Shown here one piece after another: positions 1 through 43,747 of a stretch of DNA of 43,747 nt (its first letter is position 1; every line of letters starts with the position of its first letter). The translations under genes were made by a program, and so were the position numbers. Source of the DNA: Bradymonadia bacterium (GTDB lineage Bacteria > Myxococcota_A > Bradymonadia > UBA7976 > UBA1532); contig JBKAGE010000065.1 of the NCBI GenBank assembly GCA_046290225.1, positions 1 through 43,747 on the forward strand. The letters run 5' to 3'. Under the pieces are notes generated by a model. The model was not told where the DNA came from, ran no database searches, and was given only the letters and a program-made list of their open reading frames with translations.

Positions 1-85
1 AGGAGCGCCGGATGCGGGAGATCCGCACGTCCGGTGCGATGGGGGGCGGGCAACGCGGTACTACGCCGCGACCCGCCTACCCTAC
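1..85 (+). mobile_element. 3' end of a group II intron (domain V, domain VI, 3' splice site); the rest of the intron lies left of the window
   Basis: 5-37 reads GCGCCGGAT-GCGG-GAGA-TCCGC-AC-GTCCGGTGC, a DV hairpin with GNRA loop, AC bulge and CGC triad. 41-50 GGGGGGCGGG pairs with 72-82 CCCGCCT-A-CCC, leaving A79 bulged as the branch point, 7th nt from the end. Inner stem CGCGG/CCGCG. Ends ...CCCTAC (AY). Confidence 0.88.
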
Positions 86-397
86 CGGGGCTCGTGCGTA
101 GGTGGGTTATGGCTTTGGGGTTTTGGTTCTTTGGGGTTTTTACGTGGGTATGCGGGTCTGGGCGTTGAATCGTCGGGAGACGGCAATGGGGCCGAGGCCA
201 ACATCCTTCAGCCAGGAAGCACATTCATTTCTTGTTGGAGCTGTGACTTACCTGGATCTGAGGTGCACGTACTCAAACCGCCGCAGGCATCTCGCTCAAC
301 TATGTGTCAGGAGGCATCGACATGCGCGATTCAGCATGCCCAAACAGCTCACCACTCTACTCCCACAAAGCCATGACCCACCTATGCAAGAGCCCCG
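86..397. mobile_element. MITE-like non-coding element with 35-bp terminal inverted repeats
   Basis: 86-120 CGGGGCTCGTGCGTAGGTGGGTTATGGCTTTGGGG is the reverse complement of 363-397 at 31/35 positions. A further inner inverted match links about 156-172 and about 328-346. No credible ORF. Confidence 0.6.
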
Positions 398-561
398 CGG
401 AGGCGCGGAGGTGGCGACAGTCGTCGTGAGGTCGGTGAGGTCGTGTGCAGGCGCGGCTTTTCACCCGCAGGGGTAGCAGCGCTACCCCGAGGACGGAAAA
501 GTTGTGCCTGTGCGCGAGATCGCCGGCGTCACGGCGGCTGACGCCACCGCAGTGCCGGAGC
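398..561 (+). repeat. 164-bp long-hairpin repeat, copy 1
   Basis: Gap-free match (139/164 by hand) to the reverse complement of 43502-43665. Folds as one long imperfect stem. Ends 3 bp from the stop codon of the upstream minus-strand gene. Confidence 0.9.
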
Positions 562-564
562 CCG

Positions 565-1602
565 TCAGCTCGCGTTGGCGCGGCGGCGGCGGACGCCGGG
601 GAGGTGGGGCTCGCCCGCTTCCTCGTTCACGAGGGGGGCCACGTTGCTCTCAGCGGCTTCGGCAGGCGTCTCATCGGTGTTTGCCGGGGCAGAGGGCCAG
701 AACCAGACCCGGTCCTGGTTCTCGTCCAGATCAGCGCGGAAGGGCTGCTCCACGCCGTGCTCCTTCGAGAGGCGCTTGATCGGCTCGATGATGCCGCCCA
801 CGGCCACAGCACGGGTCAGGCTGAAGGCATCCAGCACATCCTTGATCCTCAGCTGCTTCTGCTCGCGGAGAAGCTCCATGAACTTGCGGGACTGATCAGG
901 CAGCGCATCGATGAAGGCGTTGAATTGAGCCTCTTGTGCTGCGTTGCTCTCAGACTGGGACGGCGTAGCAGCCTTGGGGGCTGCAGTGGGGGAGAGCACA
1001 GGTACCTCGCCTTCCACACCGATCCAGACCCAGGCCTTCTCGTCGCCGACGATCGTGGGCAGGAAGGGCACGCGGATGCCGCGGTTCGGCGCCCAGCGGG
1101 AGATCGAGCCCGTGATGCCACCGAGCTTCTTCGGAGCCTCGATCCCCAGAGCTTCCATCGCCTCTTTGATCGTCACCGTCTTCCGCTCTTCGAGCAGAGC
1201 CAGGAACGCCCGGGGGGTGTCTTTCAGGCCCGCCTTGAAGGCTTCATAGCGCTCAGTGGGCGTGCCCTCGAAGGTCGTGGGCTTGGCCACGGGGCGGGGG
1301 CGACGGCGCTTGCGGGGGGCTGGGGCCTCCTCCGACCCGGAGGCGCCATTTTGAAGCGCGTAGGCCTTCAGAGACTCGGCGAGGCTCACCGACTTTGCGT
1401 TGCTCTTCTGGGTGAAGGCTTCTGCTGGGGGTATCGCCGCCTCTGGCTGTGGTGCTGAGGGTGCAGCCGGCGCTGCGTCGGGCACCACTTCCTGAACGAG
1501 CGTGCCCACTTCGTCGCCGAGGGCGAGCATCAGGGCGCTCATGGCCTGAGCGACATCCTGGTTTTCGAGGGCGGTCAGGGGCAGTGAAATCCGAACAGTC
1601 AT
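565..1602 (-). CDS. hypothetical protein with two tandem winged-helix-like domains
   Basis: Start moved to ATG 1602 (RBS GAGGAG). Two internally homologous ~75-aa units (YEAFKAGL...GGITGSISRW...PF...WVW and FNAFIDAL...GGIIEPIKRL...PF...WFW), plus the basic linker PRKRRRPRP. Confidence 0.7.
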   Translation of the reverse strand: MTVRISLPLTALENQDVAQAMSALMLALGDEVGTLVQEVVPDAAPAAPSAPQPEAAIPPAEAFTQKSNAKSVSLAESLKAYALQNGASGSEEAPAPRKRRRPRPVAKPTTFEGTPTERYEAFKAGLKDTPRAFLALLEERKTVTIKEAMEALGIEAPKKLGGITGSISRWAPNRGIRVPFLPTIVGDEKAWVWIGVEGEVPVLSPTAAPKAATPSQSESNAAQEAQFNAFIDALPDQSRKFMELLREQKQLRIKDVLDAFSLTRAVAVGGIIEPIKRLSKEHGVEQPFRADLDENQDRVWFWPSAPANTDETPAEAAESNVAPLVNEEAGEPHLPGVRRRRANAS

Positions 1603-9288: not shown

Positions 9289-11285
9289 GTGATGATCGGC
9301 CCAAAGAGGGCAACCTGCCTTCGGGCCAGGTGCAACCGACCCGCCGAAAGGCCCGCCCCAAACCCCCACCGGAGCCCAACGCCGAAGGCGAGTCTGCTCA
9401 GCCCCAGTGGGGCGGCGGCTGGGGAGACGACGGGGATCGACACCGTGCAGATCGCCCCCGAGCTGACCGTGGCAGTGACGAAGGTACGCAGTCCGATCGC
9501 CCGGAGCGGGACGACCGCCGTCGGGACGACCGGGGTGATCGAGATCGCAGAGACGATCGCTCCAGATCAGATCGCGGCCGTGACGATCGCCCTCGCCGTG
9601 ACGACCGGCCACGCCGTGACGACCGGCTACGCCGAGATGAACGTGCCCGTCGTGATGACCGGCCCCGCCGAGATGGGCCCCGCAGAGATGGCCCCCGTCG
9701 CGATGATCGTCCTCGCCGGGATGGCCCACGTCGTGACGACCGGCCCCGCCACGACGGACCACGTCGGGATGGTGCTCGCCGAGACGGCCCGCGCCGGGAT
9801 GGCCCGCGTCGTGACGATCGGCCCCGTCGAGATGGACCTCGCCATGGCGGTCCGCGCCGGGATGGCGGTCGCTTCGACGGCGGTGGCCGCTTCGACTCCA
9901 GGCAGAGAGCAGGGCTCGCGGCCCGTCAGGTGGCCCTCGAGGTCCTGTTGGCCCTCGAGGAGGAAGAGGCCTTCCTGCAGCTCGCCCTGGAGGCCCGCAA
10001 TGTCTCTCACGATCTCGATCCCCGAGATCGGGGCCTCGCCTTGGAGATCGCTGCCGGGGTGGAGCGTTGGCGTCAGTGGCTCGATCATCACCTCGCGCCG
10101 TTCCTGCAACGGGGCATCAGCGAGACAGCCAAGCCGCTGCTCTTGATCTTGCGCATGGGCGCTTATCAGATCCTGCGCCTCGATCGGGTGCCCGATCACG
10201 CGGCTGTGGACAGCGCCGTGGAGTTGGCCCGAGGTCAGGGCGGCCCCAAGGCCGCTGGCTTCGTCAACGGGGTGCTCCGGGCGTTCCTGAGGGCCCGTGA
10301 CGACGGCAGCCTCGCTGTGGTGCCTGATGGCGCTGATGCAGCCTCCGTGGCGATCCGCATGAGCCACCCCCAGTGGCTCGTCGCCCAGCTGCTCGAGACC
10401 CACGCGGTCGAGTTCGTCGAGCAGCTGTGCGCGGTGAACAACACCCCAGCGCCGCTCATCATCCGCGCCGATGGCCCTGCTCGGAGCGCCGGCGAGCTGT
10501 CGGCGTTGCTGAAGAAGAACAAGGCCACCGTCACCGAGCGCGCCCACGCCCCAGAGGCCCTGGCGCTCTCCGATCTGCCTCGGCCCTTCAACCACCAGAC
10601 GTTCCATGATGGCTGGTGGCAGGCCCAGGACGAGGGCTCCCAGCTCGCCGCCCTGATGCTGGGCGTAGAAGGGCATCACCGGGTGTGGGACGCCTGCGCC
10701 GCCCCTGGCGGCAAGACCGCGCTCCTCGCTCGGGAGATGGGTCTGAGCAAGGGCTGGGTGCATCCTCGCCCCGAGGGCACGCTCTGGAGCACCGACGTGC
10801 ATCCGGCGAAAGCCCGCCGGCTCGGTCAGCGCTTCAGTCGTGTCGAGGGCGTCAGCGCTGATCGGCACGACGCCTCTCGCACCCCCGAGCGCACCTTCGA
10901 TCGCATCATGGTAGATGCGCCCTGTACTGCAATGGGGCTGCTCAGGCGTCACCCGGAGATCAAGTGGCGCCGACGAGCAGAAGACATCGCCGAGGCCGCC
11001 TCGCGACAGCGCAAGATCCTCGACGCTGCCGCTGCAGCCCTCGAGCCCGGCGGGGTGCTCGTCTACAGCGTGTGCTCCATCACCGAGGCCGAAGGCCCGG
11101 GTGTGGTGGCGAGCTTCCTCGCTGATCACCCCGACTTCGAGCGGGTGGCCCCCCCAGAGGGCGTCGGTGTAGATTGGAGCGCGCTCGTCGACGCTGAGCA
11201 CCAGCTGCGGCTCTGGCCCCACCTGCACGACACCGATGGCTTCTTCGCTGCCCGTTTGCGCCGCAAGGCTGGAGATGGGGCATGA
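9285..11285 (+). CDS. rsmB: 16S rRNA m5C967 methyltransferase RsmB with a long N-terminal low-complexity extension
   Basis: NusB-like part (ARQVAL...GFVNGVLR), [27 protein letters not shown] and DGFFAARL; def-fmt-rsmB-rpe order. Confidence 0.92.
9510..9900 (+). repeat. coding tandem repeats (RRDDRP / RRDGP) in the rsmB N-terminus
   Basis: At least 15 consecutive 15- or 18-bp units, conserved as peptide but varied at synonymous sites. Confidence 0.85.
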
Positions 11286-11987: not shown

Positions 11988-12061
11988 CGGGGTGTAGCGC
12001 AGTCTGGTAGCGCACTTGCTTCGGGAGCAAGGGGTCGAAGGTTCAAATCCTTTCACCCCGA
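11988..12061 (+). tRNA. tRNA-Pro (anticodon CGG); CCA not encoded
   Basis: Acceptor CGGGGTG/CACCCCG-A, D arm GCGC..TGGTA..GCGC, anticodon stem CTTGC-TTCGGGA-GCAAG, T arm GAAGG-TTCAAAT-CCTTT. Confidence 0.96.
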
Positions 12062-12128: not shown

Positions 12129-13259
12129 TCAGCGCGCCGAAGCCCAGGCCAGGAAACCTTCCGGATCAGCCTGAACCCGAGCGAGCAGTTCCGCAGGGAT
12201 CACCCCAGCACGCAGGTAGAGCTTGAGCGGATCTTGCCCGAGGGCTTCGGCGAGGGCCCCCAGGCAGGCCTCCCCTGGTGCCTTCGTGCCATGCTCCACC
12301 TTGCTCAGGAACGAGGTGCTGCAGCCCACCTTCTGGGCCAACTCGCTCTGCCGCATGCCCAGGTCCTGTCGCAGGCGACGCAGCCACTGGCCGAAGGGCA
12401 GAGGCTCGGAGGGCATCTCCTCAGAGGCTGATGGCGTGCTCTGAGGCGGCTCTGCGTCGCGGCGCCAGGTGAGCTCCGCGTAGGCCGAGTGGTTGTGGAT
12501 CGACTCGAAGTTCTCCGCCGACACCGAGATCGATTCCACCCCATCCAAAGCCTGCAACTCCAAGAGCACCTCGCGCACGAGATCTTCCACAAAGCGCGGG
12601 TTGTCGTAGGCGTACTCAGTGACCCACTTCTCGTCTTCGCGCTTGAGCAGGGCGAAGAGCGGGGCCGAAGCGGCACCCTCGACGGCATCGACCACCGACT
12701 CGATGCTCACAGGGCGGCGCCCTTGGAGCTTGACCCGGACCTCACTCCGCTGGTTGTGCGCCCCGTAGTCACTGATGGCCTTGCTGCAGGGGCAGAGGCT
12801 CTTCACCGGCACCCCCACCTCCAGAGTGAGTGTGGGTGTCGGGGCCTCGGCGTCGGAGATCACCGTGAGGGCGCAGGTGTAGCTCATGAGGGAGCGCACC
12901 CCGCTCACCGGCGCAGCCTTGTCGATGAAATAGGGGAAGCTCAGCGTCAAGCGCGCTCGGGGTGTCTCCAGGCGTCGGCGCATCTCCGCCACCATCTCGA
13001 GCAGGGTGGCCGGGGTGATGGCCCCGCGGTGGGCGTTGAGGACCTCGATGAAGCGGCTCATGTGGGTGCCCCGGGCGTCACCGGGCAGCGCCACAGCCAT
13101 GTCGATCTCCGCCACCGTGTGCTGCGTTTGACCATCCGCGCTGCGAATGCCCACAGGGTATTGCAGCCGGCGGATGCCCACGGCGTCGATGGGGATGGCG
13201 CGCTCGTCGCGCTCAGAGGCGTGATCAGGCAGTTGTTGCCGTTGAGGACGATGGTTCAT
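12129..13259 (-). CDS. folE2: GTP cyclohydrolase IB (FolE2) fused to a C-terminal XRE-family helix-turn-helix
   Basis: FolE2 motifs GTHMSRF, LCPCSK, GAHNQRS, NPRFVED and ESIHNHSAYA, then a linker and FGQWLRRLRQDLGMRQSELAQKVGCSTSFLSKVEHGTKAP...LAEALG. Confidence 0.9.
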   Translation of the reverse strand: MNHRPQRQQLPDHASERDERAIPIDAVGIRRLQYPVGIRSADGQTQHTVAEIDMAVALPGDARGTHMSRFIEVLNAHRGAITPATLLEMVAEMRRRLETPRARLTLSFPYFIDKAAPVSGVRSLMSYTCALTVISDAEAPTPTLTLEVGVPVKSLCPCSKAISDYGAHNQRSEVRVKLQGRRPVSIESVVDAVEGAASAPLFALLKREDEKWVTEYAYDNPRFVEDLVREVLLELQALDGVESISVSAENFESIHNHSAYAELTWRRDAEPPQSTPSASEEMPSEPLPFGQWLRRLRQDLGMRQSELAQKVGCSTSFLSKVEHGTKAPGEACLGALAEALGQDPLKLYLRAGVIPAELLARVQADPEGFLAWASAR

Positions 13260-13328: not shown

Positions 13329-13764
13329 TTGGGCGGACGGCCGCGCCTTCGGCGCTGCCTGTAGCGGACGACCCAGCTTTGCTGCGTCTGTAGCGGACGG
13401 CCGTGCCTTTGGCACCGCCTGTAGCGGACGCCTCGCCTTCGGCGAAAGCTGTAGCGGACGCTCATTTGCCTTCGGCAAATTCCCTGTAGCTTTTTGAAGA
13501 TCACTTTGGGGGAGTTGACTTGTCTACCGCGAGCACTGTGGGCCTCTGACGGACCACCTCCAGCGTTAGCCTCAACTGGGCTGAGAAGCCCAGCAACAGC
13601 ACCAGAACTCTCTTAGAAAGCTACAGCTCAGGCTGCCGGAGGCAGACTCGGCGTCCGCTACAGCTCTCGCCAAAGGCGAGGCGTCCGCTACAGACGCAGC
13701 GCAGCGAAAGCTTTTGCTGGGTCGTCCGCTACAGGCGGCGCCGAAGGCGCGGCCGTCCGCTCAA
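13329..13764. repeat. mirror-symmetric array of CTGTAGCGGACG units (REP/REPIN- or MITE-like)
   Basis: Full units at 13359, 13388, 13419 and 13449 (+), inverted units at 13652, 13682 and 13723, with partial units at both inner and outer edges. Period about 30 bp. Most spacers are hairpins with TTC/GAA, TTT/AAA or TCC/GGA triloops. Confidence 0.85.
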
Positions 13765-13767
13765 CCA

Positions 13768-38955: not shown

Positions 38956-39013
38956 AGGTGAGCACCACTGCGCCATCTTCACGTGCAGGCATCCGACAAC
39001 ATCCATGAGATAA

Positions 39014-39027
39014 TTGATATGCATCAC
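39014..39027. promoter_or_regulatory. FNR-like box
   Basis: TTGAT-ATGC-ATCAC (1 mismatch to TTGAT-N4-ATCAA), about 110 bp upstream of the heme-c chemoreceptor. Confidence 0.4.
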
Positions 39028-39138
39028 ATTGATGTCGCCTCACCCTATTAAGGTATTTTGTCATGATGCACTCAAGAAGTGCCTTATCAATGTTCGATGT
39101 ATGCCCTGCGTGTCGTGGATCGCAGGCAGGGAATCTAT

Positions 39139-40902
39139 ATGTCGTGGAAAAACTCGATCAACGGGCGGCTCCTGCTGCCTGTACCGCTGTGCATTGCAGT
39201 CGCCATCATCGCCATCATCGCCATTGTGCCGGGCATGGTCGAGCGCAATGTCGAAGCCGACACCATCCGTGCGGCTCAAGAAACGGCGAACCAGTTCAAG
39301 GCGTTACGCGGGTACTACACCAAGAACGTCATCAAGAAGGTGCTCAAAAACGGAGGGCTGACGCCCACGTATGAGCACAAGACGATGGAGAACGGCATCC
39401 CTCTGCCAGCCACCGTGATTCACGAGGTGAGCCAGATCCTCGAGAAGAACGACGTGCGCATCAAGCTCTATAGTCCCTATCCATTCCCCAACCGCAAAGA
39501 TCGCACACTGGACGAGTTCCAGCAGGCGGCATGGACCTGGCTCAACGACAACCCCGACGGGGTCTACAGTCGCCGCGTCACGATGGACGGCAAAGAGCGT
39601 GTGCGCGTGGCCATCCCCGACAAGATGGTGGCCGAGGCGTGCGTCAATTGTCACAACACCCACCCGCTGACGCCCAAGACGGGCTGGGCCATGGGTGACA
39701 TTCGCGGGGTGCTCGAGGTGGACACGGTCATCGATGACTCTCTCGATGATGGTGCGGCGTTGAGCATGAGTCTGATCATCGGCGCCGTCGGTGGGGGTGG
39801 CCTGCTGTTGCTCGTTGGCTTCCTGGGTACGCGCAGCGTGACTGGGCCTCTCGGCCATCTGGCCCATGCCACTCAGTCTCTCGCGGATGGTGAGCTGCAC
39901 ATCGACATCCCCTACAACGAGAAAGACGACGAGCTGGGGCGCATGGCCATCGCTCTCAAGGTGTTTCAGCAGAATGCCATCGAGAAAAAGAATCTCGAGA
40001 TGATGCAGGGGCACCAACAAGAGCTTGCAGATGCTCGCCGTGCAGAGCTGCTCAACGAGATCGTTCATACATTTGAAGGCAGTGTGGGTCAGATCGCCTC
40101 AGAGCTGACGGGGGCTGCCCATGAGGTCAGACTCAAGTCAGAGGAGATGTCAGGTGCTGTGAAGGAGACCGCCGATAACTCTTCCATGGTGGCTCAGGCC
40201 TCTCAAAACGCCGCCACCGAGGTGGAGGTCGTGGCCACTGCCTCAGAGGCCCTGACCGACTCTACGCGCGCCATCGAGCAGCAAGTGAGCAACACCGGTG
40301 CTGTGGCACAAGATGCCGCACAGCAGGCGGACCAGGCCACTGAGCATGTCGGCGCACTCGCCGAAGCGGCTGATCAGATCGGCCAGGTCATCCAGTTGAT
40401 TCAGGACATTGCGGAGCAGACGAACCTGCTGGCGCTCAATGCCACCATCGAAGCCGCTCGGGCGGGTGAGGCCGGGAAGGGCTTTGCGGTCGTCGCCGAC
40501 GAGGTGAAGAACCTCGCCAGCCAGACCGCCAAGGCCACCGAAGACATCTCCAACCACGTGAATGGCATTCAGGGGGCCACATCCCAGGCAGTGGGGGCCA
40601 TCAGTGCCATCTCGCAGACCATCACTCGCTTCACCGAGATTGCCCAGAACATCAATACAGCGGTGGGCTTGCAGGAGCAGAACCTGCGCTCGATCAACGA
40701 GAGCGTGCACCACGCCGCCGGCGAGACCCGGCAGGTGACAGGCAAGATCATGAACGTGAGCGTAGCGGCTCAACAGGCTGGGGGTGCAGCAGGTGCCGTG
40801 CTGGACAGTGCGCAGCGTATGGAGCAGGCCGCCGAGCAGCTCAATGAACAGGTGGCGAGTTTCGTCTCTCAGGTGCGCAGCACAGGGAGCCAGCCGGGCT
40901 GA
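39139..40902 (+). CDS. methyl-accepting chemotaxis protein with periplasmic c-type heme (DUF3365-like) sensor
   Basis: Start ATG 39139. TM, then a sensor containing CVNCH, TM, HAMP (DELGRMA), and [34 protein letters not shown]. Confidence 0.92.
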
Positions 40903-41300: not shown

Positions 41301-42272
41301 TCAGCTGGCCTTGAGGGTGGGCATGCCGCCCTTGTTCGGATCAGCGCGGCCGGCCTCACGGGTACTCATGTAGGCCTGAATCCGCTGTTGCCCTGGGGGG
41401 GTGGACAAGAAGCCCAGCAGCTTCTGTCTTTGCTCTTCGGTCATCTTCGAGGGCATGGGCTTGCCCAGTGAAGCACAGAACTCGGCACAAGCCTCGAGGG
41501 TGACCCCGATGGCTGCGAGGGATTCGCCGAAGCCCGCCCGATCGAAGGGCTCGTCGGCGGGGTTCGACGAGAGCCACTGCAGCAGCTCGGTGGCGAGCTC
41601 GCTCCCAGGCTTGGCGAAGGTCTTGTTCTGCACGTCGGGGAACCGCGACTTCCAGATGTAGCCGTTGTTGTCGCTGTTCATGCGCATGATGATGTCGAAC
41701 TTGTAGTGCCCTTCTTTGCCAAAGTCGGCTTCGAGGCCCACGTTGATGGGCACCATCTTGCCCCGATCGTTCTTCTCCATGACCCACTCGGTCTTCAGGC
41801 GCAGCGTGACGATGACGTGCATCTGCACATCGTCGATGGTGTCGAGGAATCGCTTGAAGATGGGGCTGACTTCTTTCCAACCTGTGAAGTCATTGTTGCC
41901 GGATTTGTAGACGTCGACGAGCTCTTTGGCACCGCCGACACCGCTCCAGGCGAGAGAGCCCGAGTCGACGATGGCGACTTTGAAGCCACCAGCCTCGGCG
42001 GCCCTCAGGGCAGAGACATAATGGTCGGGGTGATTGTCGTAGAGCCGATAGGTGCTGAAGTCGAAGTAGTTGCGAAACTTCACGGCGCCGCCGTCGGAGT
42101 CGATGACGGCGATCTGAGACTCGGCGTCGCCCTCGACGAGACCCTGAGCGATGGCGAGGGAGGTCCAGGTCTTGCCTGCCCCAGGGCCCCCTTCGAGACC
42201 CATGCGCAAGAAAGCATCTTTGGATTTGGGGGGCGCAAAGCTGACGGTGAAATCCCGCAGTTTACGTGTCAT
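41301..42272 (-). CDS. AAA_24-family P-loop ATPase (phage Sak4-like)
   Basis: LRMGLEGGPGAGKT, IAVIDSD, Walker B AIVDS, W..V...F..F and HVIVTLRLK. Confidence 0.75.
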   Translation of the reverse strand: MTRKLRDFTVSFAPPKSKDAFLRMGLEGGPGAGKTWTSLAIAQGLVEGDAESQIAVIDSDGGAVKFRNYFDFSTYRLYDNHPDHYVSALRAAEAGGFKVAIVDSGSLAWSGVGGAKELVDVYKSGNNDFTGWKEVSPIFKRFLDTIDDVQMHVIVTLRLKTEWVMEKNDRGKMVPINVGLEADFGKEGHYKFDIIMRMNSDNNGYIWKSRFPDVQNKTFAKPGSELATELLQWLSSNPADEPFDRAGFGESLAAIGVTLEACAEFCASLGKPMPSKMTEEQRQKLLGFLSTPPGQQRIQAYMSTREAGRADPNKGGMPTLKAS

Positions 42273-42416: not shown

Positions 42417-43502
42417 GTGAGCGAATGGACCACAGAGCCCGGCCAGCAGAAGCAATCTGGTACGTCTGATCGTCAAACCGCAGCTGATCAAGCGGCTGAC
42501 GCTCAACAACAACAGGCGCAGCAGGGTTATCTGCGGCAGATCTCCGAGAGTCAGCAAACACCCGCGGTGGAGAACCAGGGTCTCGCGAACTACGAAGAGT
42601 CGCTGGGCAAGTTCCTGGGCAAGCCGCTCTACAAGGCGGTCTCCAAGCAAATCACCCCCGAGAATGTCTACAAGCACGCCGAGCGGGCCATCGACAAGGG
42701 CATCAAGTACCTCGTTGAGCAGCTCGATGGGTACGACACTCAAGATCAGGTGCCCGACGCGGTCTTCGATCAGGTGAGCGCCGTGATCAAGCAGGAGGTT
42801 GATCCTGCGGTCGAGGCCTTCTTGAAAGAAGGCTACGGCAAAGAGATGGTGGAGAGCCTCGCGGGCTGGGTGGATCGAAACCCCCGCATGGTGGCCACCA
42901 TCGCGATTCTCGCCGCCATCGGCGCCATCCTGGCCAACGCCGACGTGCCCAAGCTGAAGACCAAGTTCAAGATCGCCGATGGCATCACCGCCCGTTTCTC
43001 GGCGAAGCTGGGACAGTTCCAGAACATCCACCTGGAAGAGGTCCGCGGTGAACTTCAGGCTCAGGGCACCATGGGCGACGTGAAGTACGATGCCCGGCTC
43101 TACGGTCAGTACACCGAGGAGCACGGCGAATCCATGGGTGGTAGCCTGCGCCTCGCAGACAAGGACGAGGCTTGGTGGCTGAAGGCCGGCGCCGAGCACG
43201 ATCACACTGGGCAGGCGATCGATCTCAGTGGCGGGTTCCAGCGTGGTGCCTGGTACGGTGGCGGTGAAGGTCGCTATCACACCGAAGAAGGCAAGTCCTG
43301 GGGCGCCCACCTGGGCTACAAGCCCACTGATCGTTTCAGCACCGAGATCAGGGGCTTCGAGGATCAGGCCCGAGGTAAAGGCGCAGAGGCGGTGGGCAAG
43401 TACCGCGGCGGCCGCAAGAGCAACTGGGCCGCAGAGTTCAGCGCTGGGCACAGCGAGAACATGGGCAACACCGTCAAGGCCGGCTTCAGCTGGAGCTTCT
43501 AG
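42417..43502 (+). CDS. hypothetical protein: Gln-rich/helical N-terminal half, beta-strand-rich C-terminal half
   Basis: GTG 42417 with RBS GGAGGT, strong GC3 bias, internal hydrophobic segment, ends KAGFSWSF. Confidence 0.7.
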   Translation: MSEWTTEPGQQKQSGTSDRQTAADQAADAQQQQAQQGYLRQISESQQTPAVENQGLANYEESLGKFLGKPLYKAVSKQITPENVYKHAERAIDKGIKYLVEQLDGYDTQDQVPDAVFDQVSAVIKQEVDPAVEAFLKEGYGKEMVESLAGWVDRNPRMVATIAILAAIGAILANADVPKLKTKFKIADGITARFSAKLGQFQNIHLEEVRGELQAQGTMGDVKYDARLYGQYTEEHGESMGGSLRLADKDEAWWLKAGAEHDHTGQAIDLSGGFQRGAWYGGGEGRYHTEEGKSWGAHLGYKPTDRFSTEIRGFEDQARGKGAEAVGKYRGGRKSNWAAEFSAGHSENMGNTVKAGFSWSF

Positions 43503-43665
43503 CTCCGGCGCTGCGGCGGCGCCAGCCGCCGTGACGCCGGCGATTTCCCGCCCAGCTACGACCTTTCCGTCCTCGGCGCAGCAGCGCTGCGCCTGCGGGT
43601 GAAAGCCCGCATCTGAACGAGAACTCACCGACCTCACGACGACTGTCGCCACCTCCGCGCCTCCG
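43502..43665 (-). repeat. 164-bp long-hairpin repeat, copy 2 (inverted relative to copy 1)
   Basis: Reverse complement aligns without gaps to 398-561; overlaps the last base of the upstream TAG. Confidence 0.9.
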
Positions 43666-43747
43666 GTACGTCAGGCCAAGCCTGTTTGAACATGTCAGAT
43701 GAAAGGTGCTGACCATGTGAATTGCTCGTTCGACATGTAGACCGCCA

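What the first reader, a model, noticed from the sequence alone, without database searches (positions are those of the whole stretch)
398..561. 164-bp strand-specific rod hairpin with compensatory changes, present twice (also 43502-43665), each time right after a stop codon
Seen: both copies are 164 bp with 25 differences, and most differences preserve pairing. Copy 1 arm GGTGAGGTCGTGTGCAGGCGCGGCTTTTC pairs with GAAAAGTTGTGCCTGTGCGCGAGATCGCC. Copy 2 arm GGTGAGTTCTCGTTCAGATGCGGGCTTTC pairs with GAAAGGTCGTAGCTGGGCGGGAAATCGCC. Changes include C-G>T-A, T-A>C-G, G-C>T-G and G-T>T-G. The apical stem GGGGTAGC/GCTACCCC becomes GGCGCAGC/GCTGCGCC, and its loop flips from AGC to GCT. The nearly invariant base pairs GGTGGCG-A-CAGTCGTCGTGA with TCACGGCGGCTG-A-CGCCACC. 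The many G-T wobbles work on only one strand, which in both copies is antisense to the gene just upstream. Known: integron attC sites share this bottom-strand geometry, and ERIC/REPIN-type elements are also long hairpins, but the attC AAC/GTT cores are absent. Inference: a possibly undescribed family of structured ssDNA recombination/mobilisation sites or a structured ncRNA, selected for fold rather than sequence.
Basis: partly seen in the sequence, partly recalled or inferred. Interest (0 to 1): 0.8.

Follow-up and report, generated by a model that had tools for sequence, protein, structure and literature searches.

The report
One-strand hairpin repeats behind stop codons
The two hairpins belong to a family of about 100 non-coding, rod-shaped repeats that sit right behind the stop codons of busy genes and keep their fold only on the strand opposite the gene; their tip is shared with unexplained repeats in other bacteria, and two mobile elements use them as landing sites.

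Summary
Confirmed, and larger than reported. The genome holds 81 full rods among 116 loci, 49-99% alike. Pairing is kept (182 same-branch double changes, null 41±6) on one strand: 730 G·T against 19 C·A cells. That strand faces a gene end in 73 of 81 copies, 55 within -1..+8 nt, mostly behind codon-biased genes; replication direction plays no part (34:28). No terminal repeats, target duplication, RAYT, integron integrase or Rfam match. The tip is not new: it matches 24 'predicted short RNA elements' listed for Geobacter in 2009 and occurs on MITE-like rods in relatives and in a sister family here, which show no gene-orientation bias. Best reading: an old MITE-derived family, homogenised by gene conversion and kept as a gene-end boundary structure on antisense transcripts (function inferred, about 0.45); a selfish single-strand DNA element is the main rival. 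A group IIC-type intron inserts at the foot and an IS in the loop. The scan noted this stop-codon pattern before in other genomes.

The parts
398..561 (+). Rod copy 1; the + strand is the well-folding G.T strand (G397 can pair with C561 and closes the foot)
   Evidence: 161.5 bits with model R1, of which it is a training member
465..492 (+). Conserved tip of copy 1: 3x2 GNA/GA loop, 8-bp stem, 3-nt loop; the module shared with other genomes and with the Geobacter family
330..397 (+). A/C-rich, weakly folding 5' leader of copy 1 (best conserved part 363-397; far boundary uncertain)
   Evidence: (I5)
565..1602 (-). Gene of no Pfam or NCBIfam family whose TGA lies 3 nt from the 3' foot of copy 1
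43502..43665 (-). Rod copy 2; the - strand is the G.T strand
43571..43598 (-). Conserved tip of copy 2, with the flipped loop
42417..43502 (+). Gene of no Pfam or NCBIfam family whose TAG shares its G with the foot of copy 2
43666..43747 (+). 5' end of a group II intron inserted exactly at the foot of copy 2, separating the rod from its leader
   Evidence: six identical 5' ends, all at a foot
1..85 (+). 3' end (domains 5 and 6) of another copy of the same intron; CGC triad as in class IIC (marker recalled)
86..150 (-). Leader of a third element, back to back with copy 1, whose rod lies beyond the intron on another contig (best match 86-120)
   Evidence: (I5)

Best explanation
An old, non-coding repeat family descended from MITE-like rods that carry a widely shared hairpin tip. 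In this lineage it has no terminal inverted repeats; resident copies exchange sequence by gene conversion, and selection keeps a 57-60 bp fold with fixed T.G wobbles and G.A loops on the strand opposite the neighbouring gene (shown: fold, strand, position; inferred: descent, conversion). One-sided deletions and duplications at the 3' foot have moved it flush against whatever must be kept: stop codon, tRNA end, terminator tail or ribosome-binding site (inferred). Most likely job: a gene-end boundary. A transcript entering the gene's 3' end from the other side (convergent neighbour or stray antisense) meets an unstructured C-rich leader and then the stable rod and is stopped or capped there, while the weaker fold on the mRNA itself may block 3' exonucleases as REP hairpins do (inferred, untested). 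Secondarily it is the landing site of a group IIC-type intron (foot) and an IS (loop) (shown).
For: Covariation on a tree: 182 same-branch double changes, 174 canonical to canonical, null mean 40.7, maximum 65 (75 copies, 6 with incomplete feet left out); 96.9% of cells paired on 29 copies. Strand: single changes from Watson-Crick to G.T 83, to C.A 15. Position: 73 of 81 face a gene end; 52 of 69 within 8 nt of a neighbour against about 10 expected; convergent gaps enriched, divergent ones avoided (29/39/1); in tandem gaps 32:7 for one orientation. Neighbours have high codon-model scores (median percentile 0.83 against 0.44). No replication bias (34:28, 19 undetermined) although the same test sees it for the intron. 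Rods 95-99% alike have leaders only 59% alike. Leader: A+C 0.67, C-over-G skew 0.32, half the folding energy of random intergenic DNA; Rho is present and U-tailed terminators are rare in this genome (61 of 2212 control gene ends). Sister family with the same tip has terminal repeats, 13 of 22 perfect 3-bp duplications and no orientation bias (8 of 22; Fisher p 7e-7 against the main family). Relatives likewise. REP precedent for gene-end function: bioRxiv 10.64898/2026.03.23.713779 and PMC6061677 (passages).
Against: No expression data were available, so RNA versus DNA is open. In 32 tandem cases no annotated gene transcribes the well-folding strand, so stray antisense must be assumed. Loops are mostly 3 nt and show no GNRA or UUCG tetraloops, here or in 107 metagenome tips, which is unlike most functional RNA hairpins. 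Rho loading on the leader would not obviously need a 60-bp rod, and the order leader-then-rod is the reverse of the stem-then-rut order described in PMC6061677. The one-strand fold also exists in families with no orientation bias, so it did not arise for this job. Gene calls and the expression proxy come from my own codon model. No empty site from a close strain was obtained, so descent from a MITE and the deletion ratchet are not observed.
Confidence: 0.45

Rival explanations
1. A selfish single-strand DNA element, like a REPIN or a lone attC site: the G.T strand folds when exposed, an unidentified host or trans-acting enzyme binds the tip and the paired GNA/GNA foot loops, and new copies land on the template strand at gene ends where transcription opens the DNA.
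For: GNAG tags at both feet and free 3-nt loops suit a DNA hairpin (stability of GNA loops in DNA recalled). The 3' foot is rearrangement-prone: 14 of 81 copies carry tandem re-copies of it, and shortened rods keep both feet. Orthologous nrdJ-, ettA- and rpsD-like loci of other genera lack it (0 of 56 loci). REPIN spacers also conserve length and pairing (PMC3116915, passages).
Against: No Y1/RAYT, no integron integrase (the assembly is 99% complete but its multi-copy elements are unassembled). No replication-strand bias. Near-identical rods have diverged leaders. Feet are direct, not inverted, GGAG tags.
Confidence: 0.25
2. A nearly neutral MITE relic. Arm-to-arm copying (quasi-palindrome correction) and gene conversion keep the arms matched without any function, and the orientation bias comes from loss of copies whose strong fold would lie on the mRNA of a busy gene.
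For: One copy has a left-arm block rewritten as the exact complement of the right arm (C35:546359), and one loop is flipped. Relatives carry recent, near-identical MITE-like copies.
Against: Arm copying would erase G.T wobbles and G.A loops, yet T.G is kept in 74 of 81 copies at two positions and new wobbles arise 83:15 on one strand. The sister family is tolerated in both orientations next to stop codons (4:4). The tip is conserved across phyla.
Confidence: 0.15
3. A SINE-like retro-element: the G.U-strand RNA is reverse-transcribed from its 3' foot by the intron's enzyme and inserted at gene ends.
For: Sharp 3' end, ragged 5' leader, A-rich fillers (17 of 27 bases between re-copies, 52 of 142 before stop codons against 18% background), tandem 3' re-copies, an active intron family at the same sites.
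Against: No target duplication, no poly(A) tail, internal deletions keep both feet, relatives are bounded by terminal inverted repeats, leaders do not travel with rods.
Confidence: 0.1

Closest known systems
Gmet_R1001-R1024, 24 'predicted short RNA elements' of Geobacter metallireducens (Aklujkar et al. 2009, PMC2700814, Additional file 4)
   Same: Same tip: the published central palindrome occurs exactly in 3 rods here and with up to 2 mismatches at 30 sites, all 30 inside rods; flanking GNA/GA loop and variable paired arms visible in the published alignment; intergenic, multicopy, function unknown.
   Different: About 113 nt aligned there against 164-180 nt here; no covariation, strand or position analysis in the passages read; the two GNA/GNA foot loops and the leader were not seen in that alignment; orientation to genes in Geobacter not tested.
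Bacterial MITEs (ERIC/IRU, YPAL/RU-2, Correia/NEMIS, RUP; PMC2229807, first third read)
   Same: 100-200 bp, non-coding, long stem-loop, intergenic, many copies; the sister family and relatives have terminal repeats and short duplications.
   Different: The family of this finding has no terminal inverted repeat and no target duplication, is far more diverse, folds on one strand and is strictly oriented to genes.
REPINs and GTAG-type REPs with RAYT transposases (PMC3116915, PMC3733652; passages)
   Same: Conserved ends, spacer conserved in length and pairing with compensatory changes, avoidance of divergent gaps, end often supplies the TAG stop.
   Different: GGAG tags are direct repeats that mispair, not inverted REPs; no RAYT in the assembly; longer rod with a conserved tip.
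Integron attC sites (recalled)
   Same: One-strand fold, sequence free but structure kept, placed behind stop codons with the folding strand antisense, targeted by IIC introns.
   Different: No AAC/GTT cores, no integron integrase, no cassette arrays, neighbours are housekeeping genes, no lagging-strand bias; the intron enters the weak strand here.
Targets of group IIC introns (PMC10190682, passages)
   Same: Insertion a few bases 3' of a DNA stem-loop, on the lagging-strand template.
   Different: The target is a dispersed repeat family rather than a terminator or attC site.

Membership tests
MITE (TIR type) | Terminal inverted repeats | tested here: not met
   Feet are GNA/GNA mismatch loops with direct CGGAG repeats; met in the sister family and in relatives
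MITE (TIR type) | Target site duplication | tested here: not met
   Longest flank match 4.64 nt against 4.67 in shuffled pairs, 81 copies; sister family 13 of 22
MITE (TIR type) | Autonomous IS with the same ends | tested here: inconclusive
   Multi-copy IS bodies are unassembled; 2 of 118 ORFs beside metagenome tips are IS701 transposases with their own ends
MITE (TIR type) | Empty sites in close strains | tested here: inconclusive
   No same-genus genome held; other genera lack it at 56 orthologous loci but are too distant to show junctions; laid contigs did not bridge a copy in the tables shown
REPIN / GTAG-REP | Two REP palindromes in inverted orientation with GTAG/GGAG tags outward or inward | tested here: not met
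   Tags lie on the same strand at both ends
REPIN / GTAG-REP | RAYT (Y1 HUH) gene flanked by the repeat | tested here: not met
   PF01797 and NF047646: 0 matches; no HUH motif in six frames and no such gene between repeats
REPIN / GTAG-REP | Spacer conserved in length and pairing, extragenic, divergent gaps avoided | tested here: met
attC site | RYYYAAC / GTTRRRY core sites | tested here: not met
   Consensus ends
attC site | Integron integrase or cassette arrays | tested here: not met
   TIGR02249 best 85.6 bits against cut-off 265; copies mostly single or back to back
attC site | Fold specific to the strand antisense to the upstream gene | tested here: met
Rfam RNA families incl. Flavo-1 | Covariance-model score at the family cut-off | tested here: not met
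   only chance-level miRNA hairpin hits
Geobacter Gmet_R1001-R1024 family | Central palindrome given in the legend | tested here: met
   3 exact, 27 with 2 mismatches, all inside rods
Geobacter Gmet_R1001-R1024 family | Full-length similarity to the 24 aligned sequences | not tested
   Compared by eye only around the tip
Structured non-coding RNA | Transcription of the folding strand | not testable with these tools
   no RNA holder listed
Group IIC intron target | Insertion just 3' of a stem-loop, on the lagging-strand template | tested here: met
   6 of 6 5' ends follow a foot (4 full rods, 2 foot fragments), 6 of 6 3' ends precede a leader; 10 of 12 ends on the expected strand, 1 undetermined, 1 opposite on a 7-kb contig

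The most novel reading that the evidence does not exclude
A hairpin tip conserved across at least three phyla is a binding site for an unknown host factor that reads one strand only. MITEs with unrelated ends carry it as cargo, and in this lineage the host has turned it into an oriented barrier behind its busiest genes, a termination or collision-control signal that is neither an intrinsic terminator nor a REP, in a genome nearly devoid of U-tailed terminators.
Probability: 0.25. Interest if true: 0.8.

Novelty: new variant of a known kind. Interest (0 to 1): 0.55.

Why it matters
Repeats that sit on stop codons and fold only on the antisense strand keep turning up without an explanation. This genome supplies a natural control (a sister family with the same tip, transposon-like ends and no orientation bias) and a bridge to a cultured, genetically workable organism: the same tip was listed in Geobacter metallireducens and G. 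sulfurreducens, so RNA versus DNA, and function versus relic, can be tested at the bench. It also shows a repeat family serving as a dedicated safe landing site for both a group II intron and an IS, which explains many contig breaks in this assembly.

Tried and rejected
Rfam at gathering and at loose E-values: only the intron end and a tRNA; Flavo-1, a recalled lead, gave no match. BLAST with copy 1 in 60 relatives: two marginal short hits. A basal-stem pattern found 0 metagenome loci. The tip pattern found 0 viral loci. Rod statistics used a score that was too loose and were discarded; a stricter count gave 16 of 87 metagenome tips with 20 or more further pairs against 4 of 287 controls, and only a weak G.T excess outside the tip (36:23). 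The loose sister-family pattern was replaced. re-sampled the window's own phylum under new handles and adds nothing. Ten single genomes of other groups had no tip. No RNA holder listed; three DNA runs with small shares gave short contigs only. The two reverse transcriptases in the assembly are not the intron's and lie away from the repeats. No sigma-70-like -10 enrichment in the leader (6 of 77 against 26 in shuffles) and no clear difference in intrinsic terminators (7 of 74 against 26 of 560, p 0.09). IS targeting of the loop can be explained by sequence alone: its 13-bp palindromic target stands empty at only 6 places, 5 in rods. A plasmid search with a metagenome relative gave two short hits. 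Literature searches for a description of the oriented family found only the Geobacter listing; subscription journals and bioRxiv supplements were not searchable.

Full report
Observation. The two copies are an inverted pair of 164 nt at 398-561 and 43502-43665 with 25 differences. Sixteen of the 19 differences in paired positions keep a pair. One strand folds at -122 and -116 kcal/mol, the other at about -79. Copy 1 ends 3 nt from a TGA and copy 2 shares the G of a TAG, both on the strand opposite the well-folding one.

The family. Iterated profile search gives 116 loci, 81 full length (the 116 include about a dozen weak hits to a sister family). Lengths are 164-167 nt, or 177-180 with a 13-nt insert. 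Pairwise identity is 49-99%, median 66%, with no identical pair. All 81 fold better on the same strand. Over 57 consensus pairs there are 3752 Watson-Crick, 730 G.T, 19 C.A and 115 other cells; T.G is fixed in 74 of 81 copies at two pairs and 66 at a third. What is invariant is mostly unpaired: two GNA/GNA loops at the foot, a G.A mismatch in mid-stem and a GNA/GA loop below an 8-bp tip. On a tree of 75 copies (6 with incomplete feet left out) 182 paired columns change on the same branch, 174 from one canonical pair to another, against 40.7±5.6 in a null that keeps row and column sums and 33-64 for slid partners. The pair-counting tool agrees on the 29 copies given to it. Single changes from Watson-Crick go to G.T 83 times and to C.A 15 times, so the asymmetry is being renewed and is not only inherited.

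Position. With my own codon-model gene calls, the 3' foot of the G.T strand faces a gene end on the other strand in 73 of 81 copies, 55 of them within -1 to +8 nt (a few automatic calls move either way on inspection). Among 69 copies with both neighbours, 52 lie within 8 nt of the 3' neighbour against about 10 expected. Of 91 feet, counting halves split by an IS, 63 are flush with a stop or tRNA end, 6 with a terminator tail, 5 with a start codon, 17 other; in several of these the gene reads 23-34 nt into the foot. The 5' neighbour is indifferent (32 starts, 29 ends). Convergent gaps are enriched and divergent ones avoided. The neighbours score high in the codon model (median percentile 0.83 against 0.44 for 1134 controls); by eye they include ribosomal proteins, ATP synthase subunits, glutamine synthetase and a class II ribonucleotide reductase (names recalled, not from a call). 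Orientation to replication is 34:28 with 19 undetermined.

Leader and foot. A 35-70 nt A/C-rich, weakly folding leader precedes the rod on the G.T strand. Rods 95% or more alike have leaders only 59% alike, which points to gene conversion among old residents rather than fresh transposition of the unit. Fourteen of 81 copies carry tandem re-copies of the 3' arm, often joined by A-rich fillers, and shortened rods keep both feet. There is no target duplication.

Tenants. Both window ends are intron pieces. Six identical 5' ends follow a foot and six identical 3' ends precede a leader; the 3' end matches Rfam RF00029 and has a CGC triad (IIC marker recalled). Ten of 12 ends lie on the strand that serves as lagging-strand template (sign convention recalled), as described for class IIC, which recognises a DNA stem-loop 5' of the site (PMC10190682, passages). 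This also shows that the replication test has power. An unassembled IS sits in the apical loop at 19 of 21 ends; its target is a 13-bp palindrome that stands empty at only 6 places, 5 in rods, so sequence alone may explain it.

No dedicated mover. No Y1/RAYT, no integron integrase, and the two assembled reverse transcriptases belong to another locus. Multi-copy elements are unassembled, so a trans-acting transposase is not excluded.

Relatives. The exact foot is private to this genome: 62 hits here, 1 chance hit in 110 class genomes; 56 orthologous loci of three genes in other genera carry no match. But a covariance model of 29 copies hits 26 of 110 class genomes, several many times, and the 24 best loci share the tip on rods with other ends. 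In G008, G335 and G056 the copies are near-identical, end in inverted repeats, and show no bias to stop codons (3' antisense to 5' sense 5:5 of 10, 3:5 of 10, 3:7 of 16). A sister family in this very genome has the same tip, 22 full copies, 13 perfect 3-bp duplications and 8 of 22 facing a gene end (Fisher p 7e-7 against the main family). So the one-strand fold is intrinsic and older than the orientation bias. Beside metagenome tips, 2 of 118 scanned ORFs are transposases, both IS701 with their own ends.

What is in print. No Rfam family matches. Aklujkar et al. [quoted passage not shown] That palindrome occurs exactly in 3 rods here and with up to 2 mismatches at 30 sites, all in rods. Nine searches found no account of an oriented, antisense-folding form; closed journals and preprint supplements could hold one. 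Earlier notes of this scan describe the same stop-codon pattern in eight other windows; I did not test whether they share the tip.

Mechanism. Shown: fold, strand, position, tenants, shared tip. Inferred: descent from MITE-like rods, loss of mobile ends, gene conversion, and a deletion ratchet that stops at the next needed feature. For function I favour a gene-end boundary acting on transcripts of the opposite strand (0.45): it fits the tie to gene direction and not replication, the busy neighbours, the convergent enrichment, the C-rich unstructured leader, a Rho gene and the scarcity of U-tailed terminators. Against it: no expression data, no RNA-type loops, no annotated transcript on that strand in 32 tandem cases. 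Rivals are a selfish single-strand DNA element (0.25), a neutral relic kept matched by arm copying (0.15) and retroposition (0.10).

Verdict. Real and strongly non-random; not a member of REPIN, attC, TIR-MITE or any Rfam family by the features tested; it works like a REP- or MITE-type gene-end repeat and belongs to a wider tip-defined group glimpsed in 2009. New variant of a known kind; interest 0.55.

Noticed in passing
window 13330-13765: A copy of another dispersed repeat family (about 49 segments genome-wide): tandem GTAG-tagged palindromes forming long inverted arms around a core, between convergent-free housekeeping genes; no RAYT in the assembly.
   Followed up: partly
   Followed up: partly
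G000 contig ends, e.g. C6, C15, C20, C44, C81: An unassembled IS of about 11 copies; its ends can be read as a 3-bp duplication with longer repeats or an 11-bp palindromic duplication with ends starting CTGA (IS4-like, recalled). Family not identified.
   Followed up: partly
L011/L012 (G000:C79:176000-183500): Two convergent reverse transcriptases of 579 and 465 aa, flanked by two related proteins ending in SWIM-like zinc-finger motifs (by eye); looks like a retron-type or unclassified RT defence locus.
   Followed up: no
window 12129-13259: GTP cyclohydrolase FolE2 fused to a C-terminal XRE-type helix-turn-helix domain.
   Followed up: no
window 41301-42272: AAA_24 ATPase of the kind found in phage recombination modules, standing alone among chromosomal genes.
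   Followed up: no
window 38958-39139: One contig of run X1 skips 180 bases here, an intergenic stretch that is not a repeat; single low-depth contig.
   Followed up: partly
L248 (G225) and L240 (G279): In these relatives the base of the rod is an inverted copy of the flanking tRNA end or of the last codons of the gene, suggesting fold-back extension of the arms.
   Followed up: no
L264, L305; G535: Larger MITE-like units hold two tips in inverted orientation, one per strand; an IS701 sits at their flanking CTAG.
   Followed up: partly
G000 rods of 177-180 nt: A 13-nt mini-hairpin is inserted in the apical loop of about 16 copies and, in reverse, in the left arm of 3; origin unexplained.
   Followed up: no
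window 9495-9886; 11988-12061: Arg/Asp-rich low-complexity tandem repeats ahead of the RsmB gene, and a tRNA gene.
   Followed up: no
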